64,000 bases of DNA from the NCBI GenBank assembly GCA_964016885.1, contig OZ024740.1:338520001-338584000 (forward strand). Direction: 5' to 3'. The translations under genes were made by a program, and so were the position numbers. The notes beneath the pieces are model-generated. The model was not told the origin of the DNA and did not search any database. It saw only the letters and a program-made list of their open reading frames with translations. The stretch's first letter is position 1; each line of letters opens with the position of its first letter. This document shows positions 23,766 through 63,939 of this stretch, piece by piece. This stretch comes from Eledone cirrhosa. Its lineage: Eukaryota.

Positions 23766-23787
23766 TATATATATATATATATATATA

Positions 23788-23901
23788 TAAAATGGAATAG
23801 AATGAAATGAAATTTCATTTCTCACTCTTAGTACAGCACTTACTTAAATGTAAGTATGTATGTATACGTACATACATATATGCATACAGACGTACAGTAG
23901 C

Positions 23902-23962
<61 letters not shown>

Positions 23963-24400
23963 CAGGCACACATATATATATATATATGTACGTATCAGTT
24001 TAGCGGACATTTATTATAATGTCCGCTTTGTCCGTTTGTAAACAAACGGACAGCCTGATTTATGCCGTACGGTGTTAAGGCAACCACGTCACCTTTTTGT
24101 TCAACACTGACACAGGAACGATGTACTAGTTTCAAGCTTGTTAGCTATCGTCAGCACCGTATACCCTTCTGCCAGATGGTTGAACGTTCGAAAGTATATA
24201 CTTTCTTTATGAAAATTAACGGCTGAGCAGCCTAATTTGCATATCGAGTGAGTTCAGTCGGCCAGGCGCACCGAAAACGATAAAATGGAATAGAATGAAA
24301 TGAAATTTCATTTCTCACTCTTAGTACGGCACTTACTTAAATGTAAGTATGTATGTATACGTACATACATATATGCATACAGACGTACAGTAGCATGTAT
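23788..24400 (-). mobile_element. Retrozyme-like element, about 493-nt unit with about 120-bp terminal redundancy
   Basis: taaaatggaatag... at 23788 and 24281; HHR inside; (TA)n flanks. Confidence 0.8.
24119..24159 (-). ncRNA. Minimal type I HHR
   Basis: rc: cggtg CTGACGA t-agct(aaca)agct-t GAAA ctag TA catcg. Confidence 0.85.
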
Positions 24401-24420
24401 ATATATATATATATATATAT

Positions 24421-25188
24421 ATAAGATCAAAAGATGGTTAAAGGAGTTCCATGTATTTTATTATGCGCATTTCAAAAACAAACATCATCATGCAATAATA
24501 TTTGTGTTTTCATCAGATAAAACAGGAGAACATGATATGAAGGCTAAAAACACTTGTGGATAGTGCAGTTTTAAATCAACATATGAAAAGTGGTTTTAGA
24601 TTGATGTGTGATATTGGGAAAAATATTTTATTTAGAGAGGGGGGGGGGTGGAAAGGATGAAAAAGGGGAGGAGATGAGAGGGAGAGATGGGTGATAGAGA
24701 GAAAGAGATAGTTTTTATAACTGAGAGAAGATATATTGTTTTACATAGAGAGGTTGAAAACCGTTGGAAGATAATGTATAAATTAAAAGAATTTGAAAAT
24801 TAACGAAGGGAAAGATATGTACGAGGAAAAAATATTTTATTTAGGGAGGGGGTGGGGTGGAAAGGATGAAAAAAGGGGGAGGAGATGAGAGTGAAGGTGG
24901 AGAGGGAGAGATGGGTGATAGAGAGAAAGAGATAGTTTTTATAACTGAGAAAAGATATATTGTTTTACATAGAGAGGTTGAGAACCGTTGGAAGATAATG
25001 TATAAATTAAAAGAATTTGAAAATTAACGAAGGGAAAAATATTTACGAGGAAAGAGAGGGAGTTTATGTATGAAGATGTTTAACCATCTTTTGATCTTAT
25101 ATTATGTATACTCCAGTCCTACAAACTGTAGAGTGCTTCTTATCCGATATCTGCATTGCTTTATTGTACTACAATAAAACTCACCTCC

Positions 25189-25190
<2 letters not shown>
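24421..25190 (-). mobile_element. HHR-bearing non-coding element with internal about 220-bp duplication and 22-bp inverted end
   Basis: ataagatcaaaagatggttaaa is inverted at about 25079; direct repeats at about 24620-24830 and 24830-25050. Confidence 0.7.
24454..24524 (-). ncRNA. Type I HHR
   Basis: rc: tgttttat CTGATGA aaacacaaatatt...atgtttgttttt GAAA tgcgca TA ataaaata. Confidence 0.8.
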
Positions 25191-25232
<42 letters not shown>

Positions 25233-25383
25233 CAAGCACACATATATATATGTACGTATCAGTTTAGCTAACATTTATTATAATGTCCGCTTTGTCAGTT
25301 TTGTAAACAAACGGACAGCCTGATTTATGCCGTACGGTGTTAAGGCAACCACGTCACCTTTTTGTTCAACACTGACACAGGAA

Positions 25384-25424
25384 CGATGTACTAGTTTCAA
25401 GCTTGTTAGCTATCGTCAGCACCG
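25384..25424 (-). ncRNA. Minimal HHR in a truncated second copy (25229-25424) of the 23788 family
   Basis: Same sequence as 24119-24159; the copy ends exactly at stem I, followed by (TA)n. Confidence 0.85.
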
Positions 25425-25440
25425 ATATATATATATATAT

Positions 25441-25899: not shown

Positions 25900-27355
25900 T
25901 TGGTGTAGCATCATCATTGTCAACTGTTACATGGGTAAAGGAGATGTATTAGATAAAGAGAAATTTAAAGGTATCATTGATAGACCAGGTCACGAGAGTT
26001 ACAGAATGAGTAATTGCACAGGCGATTAGAGACCAAATTAACCTAAATGAGATGCAGCTCAGATTCATGAGGCAACTTCAAAAGAAATACCTAGTTAAAA
26101 GTAAGACCCTCTACTAACATTTGAAAGATTCCGCTCCATAAACTGATGGGCTCTTAGAAAATTGGGGGTAGATAAGTAGCTTGTGGGGGTGGTACAAGGG
26201 AGCAGTTAGCAAGTTTAGAATAAACTATTTTTATAGTGAGGAATTTAATGTGCAATTTGGGTCTATTAGGGTCTGTTTTTAGCCCTCTCTTGTTTATTAT
26301 TGTCCTGCAGGCTATAATGGAAGAGTTTAAGACTGGCTGCCCAATAGAACTCCTATATGTCTATGATCTAACCCACATAGTCAAATCTATAGCAGAATTA
26401 GAGAAGAAATTCCTGACCTGGAATCTTAAAGTCAACTTGGCAAAGACTAAAGTCCTAGTAAGTAGAAAGAAAAACAGGAACCTGATCCATCCAGGGATAT
26501 GGCCTCACTTTGTGTGCAGAAAAGGAGTGGGTAGAAATTACATCCTTTTTCCAAAATACAAACTATGAGTACACAAGAAATGTAGCAGGTTAACAAAGAA
26601 TGTAGGTTATTTATGTGGTTGAAACACAGGAGTAGTAAGCAGCAACAGCTCACAGGAAACAAACTCTACTAAATGCTTTGAGAGCACTGTAGAAGTAATG
26701 GATAAGTTCTGTTACATGAGTGGGAAAATTAGTACTGGCAGTGGATGTCCTGAAAATACAGTAGCCAGAGTGAGAAGGGGATAGAAAATATCCACGGAGC
26801 TACGACCGCTGCTAAACACAAAGCCTTTTCCTTCAAAATGATAGACAGATTGTATGATGCTTGTGTACGAAAAGCAATGCTGCATGGAAGTGTGACTTGG
26901 GCACTGTGTGTAGAGAACATGCAAAGATTGGAAAGAAATAAAGCTTGCATGCTTCAGTGGATGAGTAATAGAAGTATGCATGAATGGCAAAGCACCAATG
27001 AACTGAAAGAAAAACTTCGCATAAGTGGTGTCAGATGTTGTGTGCAACAGAAGAGAATGTGGTGGTATGGACATGTGATGAGCATGGAGGATGACAACTG
27101 TATAAAATGGTGCTGGGCGCTCAGAGTTGACGGAAGCTATGGAAGAGGTAGACCTAGGAAAGCTTGGAATGAAGTGATAAAAACTAAGTTTGTGCAATTA
27201 AACCTCAGAAAGGAGATGATACAGGATTGAGATCTCTGGTGTTATGCTATACTGCAGAAGACTTGCCTTCCCATGTGCACAGGATGAAACAAAAATATAG
27301 AGGACACTAATCTGCAACAATATAACCTGACAACTCGTTACACAATAATGATGAT
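25900..27355 (+). pseudogene. Decayed RTE-clade LINE (RT to 3' end)
   Basis: GSVFSPLLFIIV..ELLYVYDL..LKVNLAKTKV; RLYDACVRKAMLHGS.TW...WYGHV...GRGRPRK. Confidence 0.85.
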
Positions 27356-29145: not shown

Positions 29146-31321
29146 TTAGAAAGTGAGGTTTTTTTTTACAAAATGAAAAATAACAGAGGTGTCCTACACA
29201 AGTGAAAGTATAAGGAAAAAAGATGGAGGGTCTGTGGTTTTTCTCACATCTGGTTAGTTTTTGAATGTTACTTGTTTTATATGGAAAAAAGTGGCAGGTT
29301 TTTAGAGAAGTAATTTGATTGGTTGGTGAATAAGTATAATAAATTTCGCGCCAGTTCGCGTTACATAGTTCTTAAAACAATGGGGGGGGGGGGTCTCAGC
29401 TTGTTTTTCCCTATATGAGTGAAGTTTGGTTAGTTGATGCAAACACGTGAATAAGCACATCAGCTTTCGCGCCAGTTTGTGTTTGAATTTCTTTTTACTT
29501 AAAAAAAAGTGGCTCACGAAGGCTTTTTTTTAAAATATGTAATTTGATTGGTTATAAATGAAATTATGAGTGTCACGTGAACAAGTACATTAAATTTTGC
29601 GCCCGTATTTTGGAATTTTTTTATAGCCATTTAGAGAATTTTATGCCAAACAGAAGATAATGGTCAAGAAAAAAGGGATGGAGAGAGTTGTTCTAAGTAT
29701 GACTAATGCGCTGAAATGTAATTTGATTGGTTATAAATGAAATTATGACTGTCACGTGAACAGGTTCCTTAAATTACGCGCCCGTATTTGGGAATTTATT
29801 TTGTAGCCTTTTAGAGAATTTTGTGCCAAACAAAAGATAATGGTCAAGAGAAATGGGATGGGGAGAATTGTTCTGGTTCAGTGAATATGGCTGGTTCACT
29901 GGGGTGTCAGAATTCAGACTTTCTATTGAAATAAAGAATATAGAGATATGTATGTTTATTTGTGTGCTTGCTTGCGCGCGTGTGTGCGTGTGTGTGTGTA
30001 GGAAGAGGATTCTATTAGTAGAAATGGGGGAGGGAGTTGTGTGTGTGTATGGGTGTTGTGTGTGTATGTGTGTGTGGGAGTATGGTTAGCAAGTTAGGAT
30101 GGAGAGAATATATTTTTTTTTGTGCGTGGGGGGGGGGGAGTATGGTTAGCATGCTAAGATGGAGAGAATATTTATATTTTGTGTGTGTGGGTGTGTAGGA
30201 AAATGATTCCGTTAATAGAATTGCGGGAGGGAGTTATGTGTGTGTGGGGTGTGTGGTTAGCATGTTAAGGTGTTAGAGTATTAACGTATGTTAAGGTTTA
30301 TTTAGTTCTGGTTTTTATTTTCTAAAGTAGGTGTTATGTGTGTGTGTGTGTATGTATGTGTCTGTTTGGATGGTTAGCATGTTATGGTGTTGACATAATG
30401 TATATTAAATTATATTTAATGCTGGTCTATATTTTTGAATAAGCATATTTTCCTTATTTATTCGTATTTGTTCTGTTGTATTGTCAGCGCAAAGATACAA
30501 TGGGAAGACTTGGAATTTGGGTGTCTTATTACTTGTGCATATGTCTAGATGTGCACTTAGTGGTATCTGTCTCGTGGTTGGATCTCGTAATTGTTGGCGA
30601 TGAACTGTCATTCTCTTTCTGAGTGTGAGTTTAGTTTGTCCTATATAATCTTCATTGCATTCTTTAGATTTAATGGCATGAAGTAGATTTTTTGATGAGC
30701 AAGTGAAGGGATTTTTTACAGCAAAATTTTGTCCTTATTGAAATCTATACGTGTTGCCTTCAATGAGGTGAGTGCAGGTTCCACAATTAGGGCGATCACA
30801 TTTTTTGACAGTTGGTTGTGGGTTTGTGGTAGGTAATTTGGCATTGGTGAGTAATGTTTTCAGTGATTTTGGTTGTATTTTGCTTTTGATTATTTTGTGT
30901 GTTTCAAGGGCTTTTTTCATTCCTGGGTCTTGTTTCAATAGTGGGATGTTCTTGTGAATAGTGCTGTAAGCTTCCACATTTCTTGGGTTGTGCGTTGAGA
31001 TATATGATATTGGACGTACCTTGAATTTGTTTCTGTTTTCGTAATTCATCAATGCCTATTGCTTTAGCCCTTTCTATTCCATTATTTATTAGTAATGGTG
31101 GGTACTGTCTTTCGAGTAGAATTTCTTTAATTCTTGAAGTCTATTATTTCGCGTTTATTTCCATATAAAACAAGACCAACCAGATGTGAGAAAAACCACA
31201 GACCCTCCATCTCAACACTACTTTTGAAAAGCAGAAGAACTGCGAAACCGGTAAAGAAACCAAATAAATATATATATTTAAAAAAAAAGACTGCAGTTGC
31301 ATTTTTGATTTCATCTTTTTT

Positions 31322-31372: not shown

Positions 31373-32015
31373 TTTCGTTTCTGAATTTGTTTAGCAAGAT
31401 TCTTTATCTGAAATCGTGTGTTGAAACCGATATTGTTATACTTTGGGAGGGTCATGTTGCCAATAAGAAACACACGCACCAGTTGCTTTCACTTCAATTT
31501 ATCATATATTTATAAATTTATAAATTTACAAATCTACAAATTTATAAATTTCTGGTTGGTTGGTTGGTTCCACAACCAGATAGTTGTTTATATATAGTCA
31601 TAGTCCTTTCGTCACACACTCTGTGACCTCTTCAGTGACTGGGGATTCCTTTCTTTGTTTCTGTGCCTTTCCTTTCTTCTATCCTACGCCATTTTGTTTC
31701 TGTGTGTGTGTTGTGTGCTCAGTTTGCGCATGCGCCACATCCGTGTGTCTGTGTGTGTTTGTGTGTGTGTGTTCATTTATCTATTTGTTTATTTATTTAT
31801 TTATTTATTGTTGGTTGGTTGTTTGTTCTATGTGTGTGTGTGTTTTCATTTTGTCCTGTGTGTGTTTTCATTTTGTCCTTAATTGTAAGTTGTGATGTTG
31901 CTGTTCCACTCATAATTTGTCAATTTATAAATTTATAAATATATAATAAATTGAAGTGAAAGCAACTGGTGCGTGTGTTTCTTATTGGCAACATGACCCT
32001 CCCAAAGTATAACTA
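31370..32015 (-). mobile_element. PLE pLTR-like element with about 90-bp inverted terminal segment
   Basis: 31436-31525 is inverted at 31922-32013; tail motif shared with the 50227 PLE. Confidence 0.8.
31596..31640 (-). ncRNA. Minimal HHR
   Basis: rc: agtca CTGAAGA g gtcaca(gagtg)tgtgac GAAA ggac TA tgact. Confidence 0.8.
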
Positions 32016-32050
32016 TATATATATTAATAAAATAGATGTTCTTTTGATCA

Positions 32051-32113
32051 ATTACATTTTGTTATACATATTTCGGATGTACAACAGTACGTCCTCATCA
32101 GACAAAATATAAT
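32051..32113 (-). ncRNA. Minimal HHR (family shared with the 34015-34310 foldback)
   Basis: rc: attatattttgt CTGATGA ggacgtac(tgtt)gtacatcc GAAA tatgta TA acaaaatgtaat. Confidence 0.85.
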
Positions 32114-32223
32114 GATACATGATATACCCTGAGATGTTAAATAGTTAAGATTTAATCTAGGTAGTGATTAACCTAAGAGAAAATTTAACATTTATACCCT
32201 AATAATGAGAAAATGCGAAAACG

Positions 32224-32347
<124 letters not shown>

Positions 32348-33973: not shown

Positions 33974-34014
<41 letters not shown>

Positions 34015-34019
<5 letters not shown>

Positions 34020-34310
34020 TATTAATAAAATAGATCTTCTTTTGATCAATTACATTTTATTATACATATTTCGGATGTACAACAGTACGTCCTCATCAGA
34101 CAAAATATAATGATACATGACATACCCTGAGATGTTAAATGGTTAAGATTTAATCAATGACTACCTTGATTAAATCTTAACCATTTAACATCTCAGGGTA
34201 TGTCATGTATCATTATATTTTGTCTGATGAGGACGTACTGTTGTACATCCGAAATATGTATAATAAAATGTAATTGATCAAAAGAACATCTATTTTATTA
34301 ATACTTATAT
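34015..34310. mobile_element. Near-perfect foldback (about 143-bp arms) with HHRs at 34049-34111(-) and 34212-34274(+)
   Basis: Arms meet at about 34158-34167; HHR fold as at 32051. Confidence 0.88.
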
Positions 34311-37416: not shown

Positions 37417-37581
37417 GGGGGGGGGGGTACAATATTTAAACGATATACAAAAAAAATCTTTCTCATATATCAAGTTCAGAAACTACTAGTATTATGTACA
37501 TATACATAGAACAACAAGCAATAAATGTAATATATATATATATGTTATATATATATATATATATATATATATGTTTATATA

Positions 37582-37863
37582 GTTATACTTGGGGACGGTG
37601 ATATTGTTGTAATTATATTGCCAGAAATAATAACAGAACACACTCACTGTTTGGTTGCTTTTCGCGTCTGTATCTTTTATATCTCCATAGTTAATTTATT
37701 TGGCAATCAGTGTTTATCATTGATTGACCAACGGTTAAAAATACAAATATAAATATATATATATAGTCTATCAAAGTTCTTTCGTTGCACATCTGCAACA
37801 TCATCAGTGGTACTATTATCATGTTGCCTCTTATTGTATTGTAATGTTTACGCCATTTTTATT

Positions 37864-37894
<31 letters not shown>

Positions 37895-38522
37895 TTTTTG
37901 TCTCCGTCTCTGCGCATGAGTTTGCGTGTGTGTATAATGTTTGGTGTGTGTGTTCGCCTTTGAATGTATGTGTTTTGGTTTTTGTATTATATCTTTGTTT
38001 ACTAGTGTGTGTTTATATGTGTTTGCTGTTATTGTACTTGTGTATTTATTTATTTATTTATTTATTTATATTTCCCTTAAGTCAGTATTGTTTGTTTTGG
38101 GTATGGTTGTTGTTGTTATTCGATTCGTTTTTTCTTTTTAACTTTGGTTTTCTAAGCTCTATTTCACTTGCTTCTCTGATTTGCCTACTTGTTGGGTCAT
38201 TTCTATGTTTAGATATTATTTTAATTTCTATGCTGTCTATATTACCGTCGTGTTGTTGTCTGGCATGTTCGTATAGTAGTGAACCGTTTTTTTTTCATCC
38301 TTTTAATTCACCCAGTGGTGGTCTATTCTTTCTCATATGCTTCGAACTGCCAACAACTTCTAAGCGTCTAACAATGACATACCACCCTTGCATGGGCACT
38401 GCAAAGACCATAAAACAACCGAAGACCCGACGACAGGACATCCAACAAGACCTGTATGCGGAGCCAATTTTGCTAGCAACTACAGGATCACCTACTTTCT
38501 CTCGATGGTTATACGCCCCATA
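37582..38522 (-). mobile_element. Truncated copy of the 50227 PLE family with an inverted RT piece
   Basis: 38090-38330 is similar to 50790-51015 (EN C-terminus); 38388-38520(+) GHCKDHK...PTRPVCGA...RITYFLSMVIRP is an N-terminal PLE RT motif; HHR core at about 37763-37816(-). Confidence 0.85.
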
Positions 38523-38573
<51 letters not shown>

Positions 38574-38616
38574 TAGCGAGGTTTTTTATATGAAATCGTG
38601 TGTCGAAACAGATATT

Positions 38617-40535
38617 GGGTTTGTGTGCGATTACATGCATATGCATCATCACCATTTAACGTCTATTTTACATGTTTTCATGGGTTGAAAGTGCTGTCAT
38701 GTTGTAGGGCTAGACAATGTAGATGACCACACCCTGCTCATACATTCCATTTTGGCAAGTTTTCTACGGCGAGATGCCCTTCTTAACGTCAACCACTTCA
38801 GCATTTACGGAGTTCGATTTATCCTGGCCTCAGCACTACCACTTATCGACACTAGGGCACTTGTGCCATCCATGGCCAGACTGGGAAGTCATTGATGGGC
38901 GTAAGGAAGGTACCTGCTGCTTGCCAACGGAAATGAGTAAGAGGGAGGTGACCTGACCTGCATAGAAGAGAGGATGAGAGGGAGAGGTGGGCATAAAGAG
39001 TATGAGCGAAGTGACATCTTTAACCAGGCTAGGAAAGCAGGATGACAGTGAGGTTATATATATATATATGTGTGTTTCTCCGTCAGGATGACAAGAAGGT
39101 TGTATGATGCCAGTGTGAGAATTGCAATTCTACATGGAAAGAAATAAGGCGAGCATGCTTTAATCCATGTGTAATTTTAGTATACATGAAAGACAAAGAT
39201 CACTGAACTAAAAGAAAAGCTGAACATAAGAGGGGTTAGATGCAGTAAATAAGAGAGAATGCTGCCCTGGAATGAAGGATTACTGCTGCATAAGATAGTG
39301 TACCGCACTCAAAGGTGATGGAAGAGGGAGAGCCACGAAAACTTGGGATGATGTGTATCAAGACTGACGTCATGCAGCTGCACCTATCAATGGAGTTGTC
39401 ACAGGACTGAGTCGAATGGCAATATGTATTACTACAAAAGACTTACTTTACGACATGAGAGAGACGATATGCAAGCAGAAAGGTGTAATGACTTTTGTTG
39501 TATTTTTCATGTCCCATTCTCATCTCTCACTTTTTATTCCTCCACCCCCACCAAGACTTCCCTCTTATTCACATCCCCGATTCTTCTCCCCCACCCCACC
39601 CCATGCCAATATGGAAAGGCAGATGTACCTCCTGCAGGGTATTGATAGAGGTCGCCCGCTCAATCCTTCATTTCAAGACTACACTCATGATCTACCACTT
39701 ACTCCTTTTACTCATATCCCTGATTCTCCCTTCCTTGGCCAATCTTGCAAGAAAGAAAAGAAGGACACCCCCTCATCAATGAACCTCCAGGCATCACTCT
39801 CTTTAAGGCTACGTCTTTCTCATTCCCACCATCAGAAAGCAACATGTAGCTATTCACACACACAGTCATCTCTCCACCTTCATCAATGCTCTCCCAGTTC
39901 AGCTACGGATGTCACAATGTCACTAAGCCTCTTTAAGGCTCTCTCTCTCTCACACCGCTCCCTAGGCAGGCCAAGTCTCTCTTTCTCTCTCACTCTCTCC
40001 ACCTCTCTCGCATTCTCACTCTCTCTTTCCCCCTCTCTCTCCCCTCCCCCTCTCCCTTACGTCATCCCTTGGCAAGGAGCATATATCTTCTATCCCACCT
40101 CACTGTCATCCTGCTTTCCTAGCCTGGTTAAAGATGTCACTTCGCTCATACTCTTTATGCCCACCTCTCCCTCTCATTCTCTCTTCTATGCAGGTCAGGT
40201 CACCTCCCTCTTACTCATTTCCGTTGGCAAGCAGCAGGTGCCTTCCTTACGCCCATCAATGACTTCCCAGTCTGGGCATGGATGGCACAAGTGCCCTAGT
40301 GTCGATAAGTGGTAGTGCTGAGGCCAGGATAAATCGAACTCCGTAAATGCTGAAGTCGTTGACGTTAAGAAGGGCCTCCCGCCGTAGAAACCTTGCCAAA
40401 ATGGAATGTATGAGCAGGGTGTTGTCATCTACTTTGTCTAGCCCTACAACATGACACCACTTTCAACCCATGAAAACATGGAAAATAGACGTTAAATGGT
40501 GATGATGCATATGCATGTAAACCCACACAAACCCA
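38617..40535. repeat. About 435-bp inverted duplication (38617-39053 / 40097-40535) around an RTE 3' remnant (about 39070-39470)
   Basis: Mirror ORFs 38723-38956(+) and 40195-40428(-) are near-identical. Confidence 0.85.
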
Positions 40536-40548
40536 TTTATTGTGTGTC

Positions 40549-40615
<67 letters not shown>

Positions 40616-40619
<4 letters not shown>

Positions 40620-41354
40620 AACATGGGGAGAAGAATACTGCATGGTTGCACATGGATTACATATTATAAAATTAGTCCCTCATCAGTGATTTGCCAACGA
40701 TCATTGGTATTTCATCGCATTAAAAATCATATACCTCAGGTTAGTGCGAGCAATAACTAAAATAAGCTATCGGGACAAGTGAAACGCGTAAAGCGAGTGA
40801 GACAAGTAAACAACATAGGAGGAAAAGCTCACCGAAGATGGGAAGAAAAACAAGCAACATGGTTATTCGATCAGCATAAGCTGGGTGAATTTCATGAGCG
40901 CTCAGCAAACAGACCTTTCGCTGTGAAGGGGATGTGAGAAAGAAAGAATCCCTCTCCTAGCGAACGGGAGGAAGTGAGAAGGGGAGAAACAGAGAGTGAG
41001 TGAGTGGAAGTGCGAGGAGGAGGTCAGTCGAGAGAAAGTGTTAACTGACAGAGAGGACGAAAGAAGGTAAGAGAAACAGAGAGAACAGGGGAGCAGTAAG
41101 AGAGAAAGAGAGAAACAGATAATCGCAGTTTAGGTAAATATATGAAAAACATGGGGAGAAGAATACTGCATGGTTGCACATGGATTACATATAAAATTAG
41201 TCCCTCATCAGTGATTTGCCAACGATCATTGGTATTTCATCACATTAAAAATCATATACCTCAGGTTGGTGCGAGCAATAACTAAAATAAGCTATTGGGA
41301 CAAGTGAAACGCGTAAAGCGAGTGAGACAAGTAAACAACATAGGAGGAAAAGCT
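40616..41354. mobile_element. Non-coding element, 528-nt unit with about 210-bp terminal direct repeat, (TA)n at left
   Basis: gaaaaacatgggg at 40616 and 41144; CTGATGA on - strand but no clean GAAA partner. Confidence 0.75.
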
Positions 41355-41418
41355 AAAATCTGTGTGTGTGTGTTTGTATATTTATATATACATACATACG
41401 TATATACATATACATATC

Positions 41419-41486
<68 letters not shown>

Positions 41487-41774
41487 CAAATAACGAAACG
41501 AAATTAAATTTCGTTTCGTTTGTAACTCACTTTTGTATGACTGACGCTTAAACAATTAAGTTAAAAATGTACATCCACATATGTATACTGAAATACTAGT
41601 ATGCATATGAATACACACACGTATACATATGTAGATGTACCAAATTTTTCACTGGTCACTTTACTGTGAGTGTCCAGCTATTATGTATGTAAACACACAG
41701 ACAAACCGATTTTTAGAGTCATACTGGTTCTTGAGGAAACACCTTTCCTCTATTCTCCAGAAAGCCAGACAAGG

Positions 41775-41819
41775 AATATTGAACTAGTTTCGTTGTTGTT
41801 ACAACTCATCAGCAGTATT
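41775..41819 (-). ncRNA. Minimal HHR (monomer 1)
   Basis: rc: aatactg CTGATGA gttgt(aaca)acaac GAAA ctag TT caatatt. Confidence 0.85.
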
Positions 41820-42240
41820 TACCTATCTTCCGGCCTTTCTGGAGAATCGTAAAAGCACATATCGTTATATGCTTTTTCTATGAAAATTAGTAGTGGGCAG
41901 ACTAATTTGCATAGAGCGTGAGTACGTACCGGTTCAACGGAGACGATAAAAACAAATAACGAAACGAAATTAAATTTCGTTTCGTTTGTAACTCACTTTT
42001 GTATGACTGACGCTTAAACAATTAAGTTAAAAATGTACATCCACATATGTATACTGAAATACTAGTATGCATATGAATACACACGCGTATACATATGTAG
42101 ATGTACCAAGTTTTTCACTGGTCACTTTACTGTGAGTGTCCAGCTATTATGTATGTAAACACACAGACAAACCGGTTTTTAGAGTCATACTGGTTTTTGA
42201 GGAAACACCTTTCCTCTATTCTCCAGAAAGCTAGACAAGG

Positions 42241-42285
42241 AATATTGAACTAGTTTCGTTGTTGTTACAACTCATCAGCAATATT
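42241..42285 (-). ncRNA. Minimal HHR (monomer 2), perfect 7-bp stem I
   Basis: rc: aatattg CTGATGA gttgt(aaca)acaac GAAA ctag TT caatatt. Confidence 0.9.
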
Positions 42286-42700
42286 TACCTATCTTCCGGC
42301 CTTTCTGGAGAATCGTAAAAGCACATATCGTTATATGCTTTTGCTATGAAAATTAGTAGTGGGCAGACTAATTTGCATAGAGCGTGAGTACGTACCGGTT
42401 CAACGGAGACGATAAAAACAAATAACGAAACGAAATTAAATTTCGTTTCGTTTGTAACTCACTTTTGTATGACTGACGCTTAAACAATTAAGTTAAACAA
42501 AAGTGAGTTACAGTCATACAAAAGTGAGTTACAAACGGAACGAAATTTAATTTCGTTTCGTTATTTGTTTTTATCGTCTCCGTTGAACCGGTACGTACTC
42601 ACGCTCTATGCAAATTAGTCAGCCCACTACTAATTTTCATAGAAAAAGCATATAACGATATGTGCTTTTACGATTCTCCAGAAAGGCCGGAAGATAGGTA

Positions 42701-42745
42701 AATATTGCTGATGAGTTGTAACAACAACGAAACTAGTTCAATATT
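42701..42745 (+). ncRNA. Minimal HHR (inverted copy)
   Basis: aatattg CTGATGA gttgtaacaacaac GAAA ctag TT caatatt. Confidence 0.9.
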
Positions 42746-42836
42746 CCTTGTCTGGCTTTCTGGAGAATAGAGGAAAGGTGTTTCCTCAAAAACCAGTATG
42801 ACTCTAAAAACCGGTTTGTCTGTGTGTTTTAACTTA

Positions 42837-42866
<30 letters not shown>

Positions 42867-42868
<2 letters not shown>

Positions 42869-43923
42869 ATAATCTATAAAGCTCAGCGTGTGGTCATGCT
42901 CCTTTCTTATAGAAATCTACGATATAGAATTTCTTCAATTGAAATTTACAATTCAGTATTCGAAATAGCTTCGATTGCGTCTTGGCACAGATAATTTTTT
43001 CAATTTCACCCACAATTACGCAGAAAATAGATAAAACTCAATATTTTACGATTTTTCTCTGTCATTTAAACTGCTAAACACTTTCCACTACCATTCAAAA
43101 TCTATACAACTTCATACTTTCTGCTACTTTCTCTTTCCAAGCTTGATGGTGATACTGTCCGTTTTACTCTCTCATATCATCTGCTTCTTATTACATTTCA
43201 TATGAAACGACAATTATTCAAAAGCAACAGATACATTTATTCAACAACAAGCGATAAATATTTTTTAAAACCTCTTTTCCAAACGCTTACAAACACACAC
43301 TCACTTCAACAACAACAACAACAACAACAATCTGCCTTTTATAGATAATGATAAACAATAATATCCTCTATGAGGTCACTAAACCTGCTAGAAACAGCAG
43401 CTAACTCTCCCCCATACCACACCCTCCCTACTGTCTTAAATTTAGAAAACATATCTTCTATGAGGTCACTAAACCTGCTAGAAACAGCAGCTAACTCTCC
43501 CCCATATCACACCACTCCCTACTGTCTTAAATTTAGAAAACACATATCCTCTATGAGGTCACTAAACCTGCTAGAAACAACAGCTAACTCTCCCTCATAT
43601 CACAACCCTCCCTACTGTCTTAAATTTAGAAAGCACACAGACAACCATGCAGAACAACTTCATCGCAGCTCTGTTGTTCGGCTGGCATCGTCTACGCGCG
43701 TGTTGCGCAAGTACTGTGAAACAATACATTTCAACACTTTTTTGCACAGAGATAATATCCATAGGCGAAACTACAATTGTCACTGCTGGCGCAGCTCCTG
43801 CTTCCAGGTCTGCAATTCATTCACCCAGTGCCTGGCAGACAAAAAAGTGCTGCCATAAAATGGGTGGTGCAACCTAACTTTGATAACTTACTGACCCCGA
43901 GCAACGCCGGGCTTTAATGCTAG
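42867..43923 (+). mobile_element. Non-autonomous Helitron
   Basis: 5' TC after A; 3' hairpin cccgagcaacgccggg, then CTAG before T; three about 88-bp internal repeats at 43362-43634. Confidence 0.75.
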
Positions 43924-44929: not shown

Positions 44930-45560
44930 TTAAGGAAGGTCATCGTTGACAATTTCAGTACCTCTGAGCTTAGCCAATAACTCAATTATAGATGACTTCT
45001 TCGATGTTATATTGAATATCACAATTAACTTATATAAAGCGTTTAATAAACCCTATAAAAAAACTCTCTTATATTAACATAGGATCAATACATTACCCTC
45101 TAGTTAGTGCCGGATTTACCATTGTGCTTGGGGCCCCATCTTCCTGTCAAGAAATGTATTTATACCGGGCCTACCTCCTTCAGGATCCCATGACTTAACT
45201 AGCACAAGGCCTCATTAGTCCTAAATCCGGCACTGACTCTAATAATTGTTTCTACTATTGGCACAAGGCCAGCAATTACCCAGTACATTACTGGTACTTT
45301 ATTTTATCGACCCCGTAAGGATGAAAGGCAAAGTTAACCTCGGCGGTATTTGAACTCAGAAATGGCAAGGGTCGTAACTCTATGCGTAAAAGCATGGCGT
45401 CCGACCCTCTACCGATACTGCCAATTCAGGCACTGACTCGTATAATGTTTAAGAACTTCATCAATAAGATTAAACAACAGGACTTTCAATCTAGCCTCTA
45501 GTAAGGAAATATTTGATAAGGTAAAGTCCCTCTAACAATATATTACTGGCAAACGAATTC
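44930..45560 (+). pseudogene. Decayed PLE RT-thumb fragment interrupted by a MITE (45105-45236) and a SINE A (45243-45425, -)
   Basis: DFFDVILNIT..YKAFNKP...; MITE TIR agtgccggattta/taaatccggcact; SINE TSD ggcactgactc. Confidence 0.6.
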
Positions 45561-49163: not shown

Positions 49164-50226
<1,063 letters not shown>

Positions 50227-50229
<3 letters not shown>

Positions 50230-52180
50230 ATACTTGGGGAGGGTCATATTTGCGTAATATTGCCAGAATTAATAACAGAACACACTCACTGTTTGGTTGG
50301 TTTTCGCTTCTCGCTGTCTTTTATTATATCTGCGATCTAACTTATTCGGTCCTCAATGTTGCCATTGACTGACCGGCGGTCAAAAATAATACAGATACAA
50401 TATAGACACAAACACATATATATATATATAGTTTACATAATTTACATAAATCTTTCGTTGCACATCTGCAACATCGTCAGTGGTGTTATATTCATTGTTC
50501 CTCCTGTTGTGTTGTATGTCTACGCCATTTTTTATTCAGTCTGTCTATATATTTATTTATTTATTTGCTTGTTTGTTAATCTTATTTTATTTTGTCTTCT
50601 TTGCGCATGCGTTTGCGTGTGTGTATAGTGTTATGTGTGATGTGTGACTAGTGTGTATAGTGTTGTGTCTGCTGGGTGACTAGTGTGTGTTTATGTGCTT
50701 GTTGTTATTGTGCTTGTGTATGTATTTATTTATCTTATTTTATTTAATTTTATTTACTTATTTATACTTCTCTTAGGTCAGTGTTGTTTGTTTGGGTGTT
50801 GTTGTTGTTCCACTCATTCTTTCTGTTTAGCTTTGGTCTTCTAATTTCTATTTCACTGGCCTCTCTGATTTGCCTATCTGCTGGGTCATTCCTATGTTTA
50901 GATATTATTCTAATTTCTATGTTGTCTATGTTACCGTCATGTTGTTGTCTAGCATGTTCGTATAGTACTGACCCGTTTTTTCGTCCTTTTAGTTCCCCCC
51001 AGTGTTGGTCTATCCTTTCACCTATGCTACGAGCTGTCTCACCTATGTATGTTTTTGTCATGTTTCTGCAAGTACCCTCTGTACATCTTATGCTATAGAC
51101 TACGTTTCTAGTTTTACAGTTTATCCGGGGGTTCACCTTACATATGATACACTTCCTATTGGTACAGTGGGTTTTCTTAAAAGGGTAGGTTTTGCTGATC
51201 AGGGATTTTATGGTGGTTCCTGGCTTTTCTACCACCTTTATTTTTAAGTGGGTCTTTCTCAGGGCCTTTCTACACTGGTTAGCTAATTTCCCTCCAGGGG
51301 TGGCGTCCACAAACATGACACTCTGATATCTCTGGTTGTCGTACCATGATGTGGCCTTCCCTATCTTATGTCTAGCCCTATCTAAGCTATTCCATGATTT
51401 GCTCCTGTATAGTGGGCAGATTCCTTTCATGTCCAGTTCTATGAGGGTCTTATACTTTTCCATGGCTCCTTCGTATACTCTGACTCTGTCTCTTTGGTTG
51501 TAGCCAGAGAACTGCATGCGGTTGATGAAGTGTTGGATGTGTCCTTCCATTTCTGTTGGGTCGCACATGCTGGACACATTCTTCATCACTCGTACCAAAT
51601 CTGCGATCAGAATATTAAACTTAGCACTACTGGACATTACTGAGTTTTTGAGTATCAGGTATTTGGAGGCCATGGGTTTAGCATAGTGTGAGTGGAGAAT
51701 TTGGGCTCTCTCGTCTATAGTGTTAATCCAGAGTTCTGTGACTAATACAGGTAGTCTATTGTTAGGGTGTTTGGAAGGGAAGTCTATAGTTACAGTTATA
51801 CTCTGGTGTATGGAATTAGCTATCTGCTGGATGCTTTCCATCGTGCTACGTTCTAAATCAAACTTGTTAGTGCTCTCTAGTGGGGGTGTTCTTATAACTA
51901 TATTGATATCATCTACATAACGAGAGTACATGATGAGGTCTATGGAGCTTTCATTAAGGAGATCTTTAAGTCTCCTTTCCCACCATACCATGAAAAGGTT
52001 AGCAACATCACCAGCTATGCTGACGCCGATGGCTGCTCCCTCATTTTGGGTGTAGATTTTCTCATTGAACTTAAATATGTGGCCCTTTAGGGTAGTTTTG
52101 ATACTAGCCCCTATTGCATGTGCGACCATTTTTCTTACCTGATCAGTGTTTTGGGGGGTCCGTATGGCTTTGGTCCACCC
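50227..52180 (-). mobile_element. 5'-truncated Penelope-like retroelement inserted in (TA)n
   Basis: RT-EN ORF, then about 535-bp 3' region with HHR core at about 50443-50485 (CTGACGA t gttgca/tgcaac GAAA); (TA)n on both sides. Confidence 0.92.
50762..52129 (-). CDS. PLE RT (motifs 4-7, thumb), Cys-rich linker and C-terminal GIY-YIG endonuclease; N-terminally truncated
   Basis: QNEGAAIG, RYVDD, LPVL, C-x4-CxxC-x7-C, NVVYSIRC...YIGETARSIGERIDQH...H...H...E...LN; the frame stays open upstream to about 52180. Confidence 0.92.
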   Translation of the reverse strand: MVAHAIGASIKTTLKGHIFKFNEKIYTQNEGAAIGVSIAGDVANLFMVWWERRLKDLLNESSIDLIMYSRYVDDINIVIRTPPLESTNKFDLERSTMESIQQIANSIHQSITVTIDFPSKHPNNRLPVLVTELWINTIDERAQILHSHYAKPMASKYLILKNSVMSSSAKFNILIADLVRVMKNVSSMCDPTEMEGHIQHFINRMQFSGYNQRDRVRVYEGAMEKYKTLIELDMKGICPLYRSKSWNSLDRARHKIGKATSWYDNQRYQSVMFVDATPGGKLANQCRKALRKTHLKIKVVEKPGTTIKSLISKTYPFKKTHCTNRKCIICKVNPRINCKTRNVVYSIRCTEGTCRNMTKTYIGETARSIGERIDQHWGELKGRKNGSVLYEHARQQHDGNIDNIEIRIISKHRNDPADRQIREASEIEIRRPKLNRKNEWNNNNTQTNNTDLREV

Positions 52181-62943: not shown

Positions 62944-63277
62944 AAAGTTCTATTTAAATTGTTGGGATACAACAAGCAAATATTTTTATAACTGATATAA
63001 AGCACTCGACAAATATTTGGAGTAGATATATGATATTAATAAATGGAAACTATATTTATAAAACCATATTTATTTCATTATATATATTTCAAGGATACCA
63101 AGTTAAATTATGGTATGCCTTCAAAATACAATATATAACAAGTAAGTATGTTTTGAAACAGTGAGCGAGTTTGAAATTAGAAAATATATAGCTTTCACCG
63201 TATTTTTTTTTAACTAAAGGAATTTTAGCTTGATAACGGGGTTTAGAACCCTCAGATAAATGGAAAAATATGAGTAT

Positions 63278-63348
63278 TGACGTACATGGGAGTCGAACCC
63301 ACATCGGTGGTTATCGCGACCACTGTGCTACCATTACACCAACACATC
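63278..63348 (-). ncRNA. tRNA-like cloverleaf (inverted copy)
   Basis: gatgtgt tg gtg(taatggtag)cac a gtggt(cgcgata)accac cgat gtggg(ttcgact)cccat gtacgtc a. Confidence 0.7.
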
Positions 63349-63523
63349 ACCCGTCTCTTTCCATTCAAATTAGAAACAAGCTAAAATTCCTTTAGTTAAA
63401 AAAAAATACGGTGAAAGCTATATATTTTCTAATTTCAAACTCGCTCACTGTTTCAAAACATACTTACTTGCCATTTAAACTCGCTAAGAATGTAGTTTCT
63501 AATTTGAATGGAAAGAGACGAGT

Positions 63524-63594
63524 GATGTGTTGGTGTAATGGTAGCACAGTGGTCGCGATAACCATAGATGTGGGTTCGACTCCCATGTACGTCA
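63524..63594 (+). ncRNA. tRNA-like cloverleaf with A and B boxes and T5 about 10 nt downstream
   Basis: 7-bp acceptor (3 GU), D, anticodon and T arms; loop CG-CGA-TA lacks U33. Confidence 0.72.
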
Positions 63595-63794
63595 ATACTC
63601 ACCTTTTTCCATTTATCTGAGGGTTCTAAACCCCGTTATCAAGCTAAAATATATAACAGTTTTATAAATAGACATTGACGTACCCTTTTAAAAAGTGACC
63701 GTTGCTTTTGGAGACCATCGGGATGGCCTCCAAAAGCAACGGTCACTTTTTAAAAGGGTACGTCAATGTCTATTTATAAAATTGTTATATATTG

Positions 63795-63859
63795 TATTTT
63801 GTCTGATGAAGGCATACCATAATTTAACTTGGTATCCTTGAAATATATATAATGAAATA
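63795..63859 (+). ncRNA. Minimal HHR in a multiply inverted element (about 63025-63900)
   Basis: tattttgt CTGATGA aggcatacca..tggtatcctt GAAA tatata TA atgaaata. Confidence 0.82.
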
Positions 63860-63898
63860 AATATGGTTTTATAAATATAGTTTCCATTTATTAATATC

Positions 63899-63939
<41 letters not shown>

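What the first reader, a model, noticed from the sequence alone, without database searches (positions are those of the whole stretch)
41481..42840. Tandem 466-nt ORF-less monomers with one HHR each: candidate circular-RNA retrozyme
Seen: exact 466-nt period, near-identical units, one HHR per unit with palindromic CUAG stem III, and a final inverted copy. Established: minimal HHRs with palindromic stem III cleave as dimers, which tandem copies allow. Inference: the array was reverse-transcribed from a circular or multimeric RNA, and minus-strand transcription would release a 466-nt monomer able to circularise.
Basis: partly seen in the sequence, partly recalled or inferred. Interest (0 to 1): 0.82.

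Follow-up and report, generated by a model that had tools for sequence, protein, structure and literature searches.

The report
Two-armed hammerhead retrozyme insertion
A 466-base non-coding repeat carrying a predicted self-cutting hammerhead RNA sits here as two back-to-back arms inside a TA microsatellite; it is a new, likely octopus, member of the known animal retrozymes, and its recurring ends suggest that Penelope-type retrotransposon enzymes pasted it in, possibly from a small RNA circle that has not been shown.

Summary
Observation confirmed. 41480-42497 is 2.18 copies of an ORF-less 466-nt unit (7 mismatches in 552 nt). An inverted arm follows (42511-42841) and both ends lie in (TA)n. 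Each unit has a type I hammerhead (GUU cut, CUAG-capped helix III). It is the canonical, not the minimal, form, and 6 of 11 pairs change on both sides against a sister family in this window. One public run holds about 1,000 contigs of the family. Their (TA)n-joined ends recur at unit positions 1, 70 and 75, the sites where this locus's two arms end, so ends are not randomly permuted. Partial tandem, head-to-head inversion, one-sided tail and (TA)n target are the published Penelope-like (PLE) footprint, and RT/GIY-YIG PLE remnants lie in the window. Verdict: new member of the non-LTR retrozymes, likely copied by a PLE enzyme. The left arm crosses two cut sites, so its template was a circle (about 0.5) or an uncut multimer (about 0.3). 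Cleavage, expression and circles are untested. This scan noted the same two-armed layout before, on other DNA of this and other genomes.

The parts
41377..41482 (.). Left (TA)n-rich target microsatellite
41480..41945 (-). Unit 1 (466 nt). [quoted passage not shown]
   Evidence: 12 X1 contigs have (TA)n before the same position; sister family starts at the homologous GAT^AAAA
41946..42411 (-). Unit 2 (466 nt), 7 private differences from unit 1
42412..42497 (-). Partial unit 3 (positions 1-86), 5'-truncated end of the left arm
   Evidence: D4, 100% identical
42498..42510 (+). 13-nt restart patch at the head-to-head junction, duplicating part of the inverted arm's first 22 nt
   Evidence: (D10)
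42511..42829 (+). Inverted arm, RNA sense on +, unit positions 64->1->466->212
42827..42841 (+). End of the inverted arm: jump over the long internal hairpin via TTT microhomology to positions 87->73; ends at the inferred second RT start site
   Evidence: X1 contigs have (TA)n before positions 70 (6 contigs) and 75 (2 contigs)
42841..42867 (.). Right (TA)n target microsatellite
41768..41827 (-). Type I hammerhead 1, predicted cut between 41782 and 41781; private helix I mismatch at 41815
42234..42293 (-). Type I hammerhead 2, predicted cut between 42248 and 42247; intact helix I
42693..42752 (+). Type I hammerhead 3 in the inverted arm, predicted cut after 42738
41879..41913 (.). Inverted pair of octamer-like words (TATGAAAATTA ... 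TAATTTGCATA), invariant in the sister family; candidate internal promoter about 100-130 nt upstream (RNA sense) of the cut; also 42345-42379 and 42607-42641
   Evidence: function inferred, octamer label recalled
41492..41520 (.). 29-nt hairpin inside the 'tail' between the two recurrent ends; also 41958-41986, 42424-42452, 42534-42562
   Evidence: D7
23787..24423 (-). Sister family in the same window: 493-nt unit plus 144-nt terminal repeat (143/144 identical), hammerhead core 24154-24130 (GUA), also in (TA)n; fragment at 25189-25430
50762..52129 (-). PLE remnant: partial RT with C-terminal GIY-YIG-like end and a CX4CxxC linker, hammerhead core 50480-50453 just upstream of (TA)n; shows that the kind of helper enzyme exists in this genome, not that it is the helper

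Best explanation
This is one young insertion of a multi-copy, ORF-less 466-nt repeat with a conserved type I hammerhead, laid down as two head-to-head arms in (TA)n; it was likely pasted by a borrowed Penelope-like (PLE) reverse transcriptase-endonuclease, probably from a circular monomer RNA that the hammerheads are predicted to release. Steps: (1, inferred) tandem arrays are transcribed on the hammerhead strand, possibly from the internal twin-octamer block. (2, predicted) Neighbouring hammerheads pair through ACUAGU into a 6-bp helix III and cut after GUU, giving a 466-nt monomer. (3, by analogy to coral, mussel and axolotl retrozymes) A host RtcB-type ligase closes it. (4, inferred) A PLE protein dimer nicks both strands of a (TA)n target and starts cDNA inside the RNA at two recurrent sites, position 1 on one strand and 70-75 on the other. 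(5, inferred) One primer ran 2.18 turns; the other skipped a long hairpin and stopped about 10 nt short of one turn, and the two 5' ends were joined with a 13-nt patch. Shown: anatomy, hammerhead conservation, multi-copy status, recurrent ends. Odds: retrozyme mobilised by a PLE about 0.82 (this plus the first rival); circle as the template about 0.5.
For: Anatomy. Hammerhead kept by selection: against the sister family 6 of 11 pairs change on both sides, loop 2 and the CUAG cap are invariant, 0/500 shuffles reach this (only 2 independent lineages). Monomer fold -150 kcal/mol, z -9.3, 0 of 100 shuffles. 1006 family contigs in run X1, whose flank contigs match the window with 0 differences over 587 and 388 nt. 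(TA)n loose ends at positions 1, 70, 75 in 12, 6 and 2 contigs. The sister family begins at the homologous site. PLE footprint as published: partial tandem, inverted 5'-truncated copy, tail on one end, (TA)n bias (PMC8557442 passages), mostly head-to-head (PMC3846280 passages); a purified PLE cuts and extends both strands of AT-rich DNA and starts at two internal RNA sites that bound the tail (PMC11167929 parts 1-2 of 4). One template: all three arms share the alleles at 41837 (39% in X1), 41841 (19%) and 41917 (55%); both direct units share an allele at position 204 that makes up under 0.1% of X1 depth; all 9 differences among arms are private. Inter-unit double hammerhead models 5.3 kcal/mol below two monomeric ones.
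Against: No RNA data on cleavage or circles. The purified Anolis PLE used uncut RNA as its main substrate, and hammerhead mutants did not reduce insertion. Only 1 of 9 Xenopus retrozyme dimers cleaved in vitro. Both constrained hammerhead folds lie 12-18 kcal/mol above the unconstrained fold of the dimer transcript, and helix I is poorly populated (0.03-0.19) in the circle this locus would release. No similarity of the unit to the ends of the 3 PLE remnants in the window beyond one 21-nt match at E 0.036, so the helper is not identified. The tail here is about 70 nt against 30-40 nt in described PLEs. Only 7 of 43 loose-end rows were displayed.
Confidence: 0.5

Rival explanations
1. Same non-autonomous, PLE-mobilised element, but the template is an uncut linear multimer from a homogeneous source array; the hammerhead trims RNA at another step and no circle is needed for transposition.
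For: Uncut RNA was the dominant substrate of the Anolis PLE in vitro. A weak helix III lets multimers survive; axolotl has multimeric RNAs. A recently formed source array would also give identical units.
Against: The right arm stops about 10 nt short of one full turn and the left arm stops at position 86, both near the start zone, which a circle explains more simply (one locus only). Circles dominate in the retrozymes that were assayed.
Confidence: 0.32
2. The unit is the pseudo-LTR of an autonomous PLE; this locus is a 5'-truncated, ORF-less remnant and not an independent family.
For: PLE pLTRs carry type I hammerheads and give the same tandem/inverted layout; 24 of 57 Xenopus retrozyme families match TEs, nearly all PLE ends.
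Against: Complete units join head to tail with nothing between, here and in X4 and X5 contigs. In X1 the share of laid sequence running on unlike the unit is 0 and the best-supported loose ends are (TA)n (contigs are short). The hammerhead is the canonical form, not the PLE minimal form.
Confidence: 0.08
3. One unit inserted; the tandem and the inverted arm arose afterwards by DNA-level duplication and fold-back repair (a nascent satellite).
For: The shared rare allele at position 204 could predate a local duplication; Li et al. propose local amplification.
Against: The right end coincides with a (TA)n-joined end used by independent copies, which repair would not reproduce; both ends sit in (TA)n.
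Confidence: 0.07
4. An infectious, viroid-like RNA that moves between species, explaining why runs with 17 organism labels hold words of it.
For: 20 of 24 listed runs from 16 studies hold part of it; X4 holds a single closed 496-nt contig.
Against: X4 and X5 also hold the neighbouring high-copy repeat (45240-45425) at about 50 and 110 times the element's depth, against about 25-33 times in X1, as trace DNA of a related animal would. A tandem DNA array also assembles as a closed contig. No match in viral or metagenome contigs.
Confidence: 0.03

Closest known systems
Metazoan non-LTR retrozymes (Cervera & de la Pena 2020, PMC7229834; parts 2-4 of 6 and passages read, supplement not readable)
   Same: Short tandem, low-GC, non-coding units, one type I hammerhead each, strongly self-paired RNA, co-occurring with PLEs. 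Helix III as in axolotl HHR_Amex1 (one pair plus palindromic tetraloop, dimer-dependent).
   Different: 466 nt, slightly above their 150-450 bp; GUU cut site; likely cephalopod host ('cephalopod' 0 and 'inverted' 0 occurrences in the main text); expression and circles not shown here.
Retrozymes as non-autonomous PLE derivatives (Li, Clavereau & Pollet, bioRxiv 10.64898/2026.07.22.740005; parts 1-3 of 5 read, supplements closed)
   Same: Meets their 'active' layout (two consecutive units with a complete hammerhead); size within their 51-972 bp.
   Different: Their evidence is co-occurrence and pLTR phylogeny, mostly in vertebrates. Here the link is the integration footprint; no pLTR homologue was found.
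EN+ Penelope-like elements (PMC8557442, PMC3846280 passages; PMC11167929 parts 1-2 of 4)
   Same: Partial tandem, 5' truncation, head-to-head inverted copy, one-sided tail between two RT start sites, (TA)n/AT-rich target.
   Different: No RT or GIY-YIG ORF; tail about 70 nt; canonical rather than minimal hammerhead.
Newt satellite 2 (seen only as cited in PMC7229834 and PMC2220036)
   Same: Dimer-dependent hammerhead in a tandem unit; reported snRNA-type internal promoter, which the conserved octamer-like pair here may parallel.
   Different: About 330 bp, vertebrate; no sequence comparison made; promoter function here untested.

Membership tests
Non-LTR retrozyme | Tandem repeat of a few hundred bp | tested here: met
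   2.18 x 466 nt; head-to-tail continuity also in X4 and X5 contigs
Non-LTR retrozyme | Type I hammerhead in every unit | tested here: met
   unit 1 has one private helix I mismatch
Non-LTR retrozyme | No coding capacity, GC below 45-50% | tested here: met
   longest Met-started ORF 50 aa; GC 35.4%
Non-LTR retrozyme | Many genomic copies | tested here: met
   1006 contigs in X1; summed depth 1.2e5-6.9e5 over most of the unit against 5-7 for flank contigs; order 10^4 units, rough, since summed depth is no copy number
Non-LTR retrozyme | Stable self-paired monomer RNA | tested here: met
   -150 kcal/mol, z -9.3; circular -146.7, opposite strand -130.5; prediction only
Non-LTR retrozyme | Lacks LTR, PBS and PPT | not tested
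   No LTR layout is visible, but no PBS/PPT search was run
Non-LTR retrozyme | Self-cleavage of the transcript | not testable with these tools
   needs in vitro transcription
Non-LTR retrozyme | Accumulates as linear and circular monomer RNA | not testable with these tools
   needs RNA data; no usable RNA run was available
Non-LTR retrozyme | PLEs in the same genome | tested here: met
   RVT_1 (E 0.001) at 50762-52180 and GIY-YIG (E 1e-6) at 30405-30734; relatives of 798-2275 aa, one annotated RT plus GIY-YIG
EN+ PLE insertion footprint | Partial tandem with head-to-head inverted 5' copy | tested here: met
EN+ PLE insertion footprint | Two recurrent 3' ends bounding a one-sided tail, AT-rich target | tested here: met
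   ends at positions 1 and 73-75 here; 12, 6 and 2 X1 contigs at 1, 70, 75 (7 of 43 rows shown); tail longer than published
Autonomous PLE | RT plus GIY-YIG ORF inside the element | tested here: not met
Autonomous PLE | Unit homologous to a PLE pLTR | tested here: inconclusive
   compared only with 4 stretches of this window; at best 21-28 nt matches; no genome held
PLE minimal hammerhead (PMC4209133) | [quoted passage not shown] | tested here: not met
   CUGAUGA is followed directly by G10.1; 6-7 bp helix I
Rfam Hammerhead_HH9 (RF02275) | Score at or above gathering (52 bits) | tested here: not met
   34-38 bits; nothing at gathering

The most novel reading that the evidence does not exclude
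The locus is a direct record of twin-primed rolling-circle reverse transcription: a PLE dimer primed both strands of one cut (TA)n site on the same 466-nt RNA circle, at positions 1 and about 74; one enzyme ran 2.18 turns and the other halted 10 nt short of one turn where it met the start zone. Thousands of such insertions would then give a genome-wide read-out of how retrozyme circles are copied into DNA, with an snRNA-type twin-octamer promoter driving the circles in cephalopods.
Probability: 0.3. Interest if true: 0.65.

Novelty: new member of a known kind. Interest (0 to 1): 0.42.

Why it matters
The papers that define animal retrozymes leave open which enzyme copies them and whether the circle is the template. 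This family is young and abundant and shows the complete PLE integration footprint with recurrent start sites, so both questions can be tested by counting arm ends and within-array haplotypes in an assembly, and in vitro with a PLE protein. I found no paper describing cephalopod retrozymes or head-to-head retrozyme insertions in the held library; unread supplements of PMC7229834 and of the 2026 preprint could contain them. The class itself is known, so the surprise is modest.

Tried and rejected
No genome is held for this window, so no direct copy census was possible. No RNA holder listed; this says nothing on expression. X8 (same organism label as X1, kind not on record) covers the inverted arm at depth about 240 with the neighbouring repeat about 5,600 times deeper; not used, since contig depth cannot rank expression. 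X23 (raw Hi-C reads of organism C, about 1 in 100 read) had 0 reads laid: no test. X4 held the whole unit but showed no cover of the same sequence (records are filtered); its depth ratio mixes two calls. The 'goes back 465' joint lies at my own seam in the permuted reference, so it is not evidence for a circle. Degenerate hammerhead pattern: 0 matches in metagenome and viral contigs. Rfam miRNA and sRNA hits are all below gathering and reflect the inverted repeat; rejected. My strict descriptor misses the sister-family hammerhead (U-U at the base of helix II) and the PLE ones; they were found by the looser scan. An assembly artefact was considered: units differ at 7 sites and the right end recurs in independent contigs, so rejected, although single private bases (e.g. 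41815, absent from X1) may be errors. No target-site duplication can be read in (TA)n. The relative speed of GUU sites was not found; PMC3138052 only lists GUU as cleavable.

Full report
Observation. The period is exactly 466 nt from 41480 to 42497, with 7 mismatches in 552 comparable positions: two full units and 86 nt of a third. An inverted copy of 319 nt follows at 42511-42829. Between them is a 13-nt patch that repeats part of the inverted arm's start. After the inverted arm the sequence jumps, through three shared T, to unit positions 87->73 and then enters (TA)n. The left end also abuts (TA)n. The unit is 35.4% GC and its longest Met-started ORF is 50 aa.

Hammerhead. Each complete unit and the inverted arm carry CUGAUGA - helix II - GAAA - CUAG - UU, with the cleavage nucleotide at 41782, 42248 and 42738. 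My descriptor found 8 such motifs in the window, none in 50 window shuffles and none in 2000 unit shuffles. Rfam reports nothing at gathering but HH9 matches all three at E 7e-8 to 2e-6. The fold is the canonical metazoan type I hammerhead with a one-pair helix III capped by a palindrome, which PMC4209133 (passages) and PMC7229834 describe as weak alone and active as a dimer. It is not the minimal PLE form. ACUAGU gives a 6-bp inter-unit helix, and the double form models 5.3 kcal/mol below two monomeric forms, though both lie 12-18 kcal/mol above the unconstrained fold. GUU is listed as a cleavable triplet (PMC3138052 passages). A sister family at 23787-24423 (493-nt unit; BLAST E 1.5e-10) keeps loop 2, the internal loop of helix I and the CUAG cap while 6 of 11 pairs change on both sides (three rows, two independent lineages). 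The ribozyme fold has therefore been conserved across families. The monomer folds at -150 kcal/mol, z -9.3.

Other copies. No genome is held, so I laid 5 of 24 listed public runs. X1 holds the window's flank with 0 differences over 587 and 388 nt at depth 5-7, so it is DNA of the same species and may be the window's source. It yields 1006 contigs on one permuted unit at summed depth of about 1-7 x 10^5: of the order of 10^4 units, a rough figure because summed contig depth is no copy number. Among the 7 of 43 loose-end rows shown, (TA)n precedes unit positions 1 (12 contigs), 70 (6) and 75 (2). These are the two places where this locus's arms end (1 and 73-74). The sister family's left end lies at the homologous GAT^AAAA. 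So 3' ends are recurrent, not permuted at random, and no ORF junction appears among the rows shown. The best protein hit of the PLE remnant at 50762-52129 is from Octopus vulgaris (64%), so the host is likely a cephalopod.

One template. All three arms carry the same alleles at three sites that are polymorphic in X1 (39%, 19%, 55%). Both direct units share an allele at position 204 that is under 0.1% of X1 depth. The 7 differences between units and the 2 specific to the inverted arm are all private. The arms were thus identical when made, or nearly so. Because the left arm crosses two cut sites, a cleaved linear monomer could not template it without repeated switching: from position 1 it offers only 302 nt.

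Mechanism. On the hammerhead strand the layout is: 3' end in (TA)n, partial tandem, 5' truncation, then a head-to-head inverted copy whose own 3' end lacks a terminal stretch of about 70 nt. This is the published PLE footprint: partial tandem, inverted 5'-truncated copy, tail on one end, microsatellite bias (PMC8557442 passages), mostly head-to-head (PMC3846280 passages). The purified Anolis PLE protein cuts and extends both strands of AT-rich DNA and starts cDNA at two internal RNA sites that bound the tail (PMC11167929 parts 1-2 of 4). PLE remnants with RT, GIY-YIG and a CX4CxxC linker lie in the window; that linker has been hypothesised to mediate (TA)n bias. I infer twin priming by a borrowed PLE dimer. 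For the template I favour the circle (0.5): circles are abundant in assayed retrozymes, and the right arm stops about 10 nt short of one turn. The uncut multimer is a close rival (0.32): uncut RNA was the main substrate of the Anolis enzyme, and 8 of 9 Xenopus dimers did not cleave. The helper family is not identified. A twin octamer-like block is invariant between the two families and may be an internal promoter, as reported for newt satellite 2 (second-hand); the octamer label is recalled and untested.

Wide occurrence in runs. Twenty of 24 listed runs, under 17 organism labels, hold words of the element. X4 and X5 also hold the neighbouring high-copy repeat in roughly DNA-like proportion, so trace DNA of a related animal is the simpler reading than an infectious RNA.

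Relation to known systems. It works like, and by all sequence-testable criteria is, a non-LTR retrozyme (PMC7229834; bioRxiv 10.64898/2026.07.22.740005, parts 1-3 of 5). Cleavage and circular RNA, two defining features, cannot be tested here. It is not an autonomous PLE. Searches for cephalopod retrozymes or head-to-head retrozyme insertions found no describing paper; the supplement of PMC7229834 could not be read and those of the preprint are closed. Earlier notes of this scan describe the same two-armed layout for 310-495-nt units elsewhere. I saw them after my own analysis; they are not independent support.

Verdict. Real feature, new member of a known kind. Its value is as a clean, countable test case for how retrozymes are copied. 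Interest 0.42; 0.65 if twin-primed rolling-circle copying is shown.

Noticed in passing
window 23787-24423 and 25189-25430: Sister retrozyme-like family: 493-nt unit with an internal (TA)n hairpin, hammerhead with GUA site and a U-U pair at the base of helix II, same left end and same twin-octamer block.
   Followed up: yes
window 50179-52129 (-) and 37531-38520: PLE remnant (RT, CX4CxxC linker, GIY-YIG-like end) and a related fragment; both end in (TA)n a few tens of bases after a hammerhead core (50480, 37807).
   Followed up: partly
window 30405-31055 (-), hammerhead core 31635-31607: Second PLE remnant with a Pfam GIY-YIG hit (E 1e-6), in two frames-worth of pieces.
   Followed up: partly
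window 34013-34310, 32015-32347, 63782-63935: Third hammerhead family (AUA site, 12-bp helix I, loop 3 UAUGUA); 34013-34310 is a 298-nt head-to-head palindrome with one hammerhead per arm. A further motif at 24516-24462 (-).
   Followed up: no
window 63222-63650: Inverted repeat holding two tRNA-like sequences (Rfam RF00005, 42-44 bits) at 63278-63348 (-) and 63524-63594 (+).
   Followed up: no
window 40607-41354: Directly left of the element, another (TA)n-flanked repeat with a 223-nt direct repeat about 525 nt apart; an inverted relative lies at 38516-39054. No canonical hammerhead core was found in it.
   Followed up: no
window 45240-45425: About 185-nt very high-copy repeat (SINE-like by size and abundance only), with many copies in the window and goes-back joints in X1 and X8.
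   Followed up: partly
window 41620-42085, table 3: 5 of 13 listed variant sites are T>C on +, i.e. A>G on the hammerhead strand, as A-to-I editing of a double-stranded RNA template would leave; direction of change unknown.
   Followed up: no
window 43361-43637: Three copies of a 93-nt tandem repeat that is multi-copy in X1.
   Followed up: no
window 26224-27230: Decayed RT fragments of another non-LTR retroelement (RVT_1 E 3e-4).
   Followed up: no
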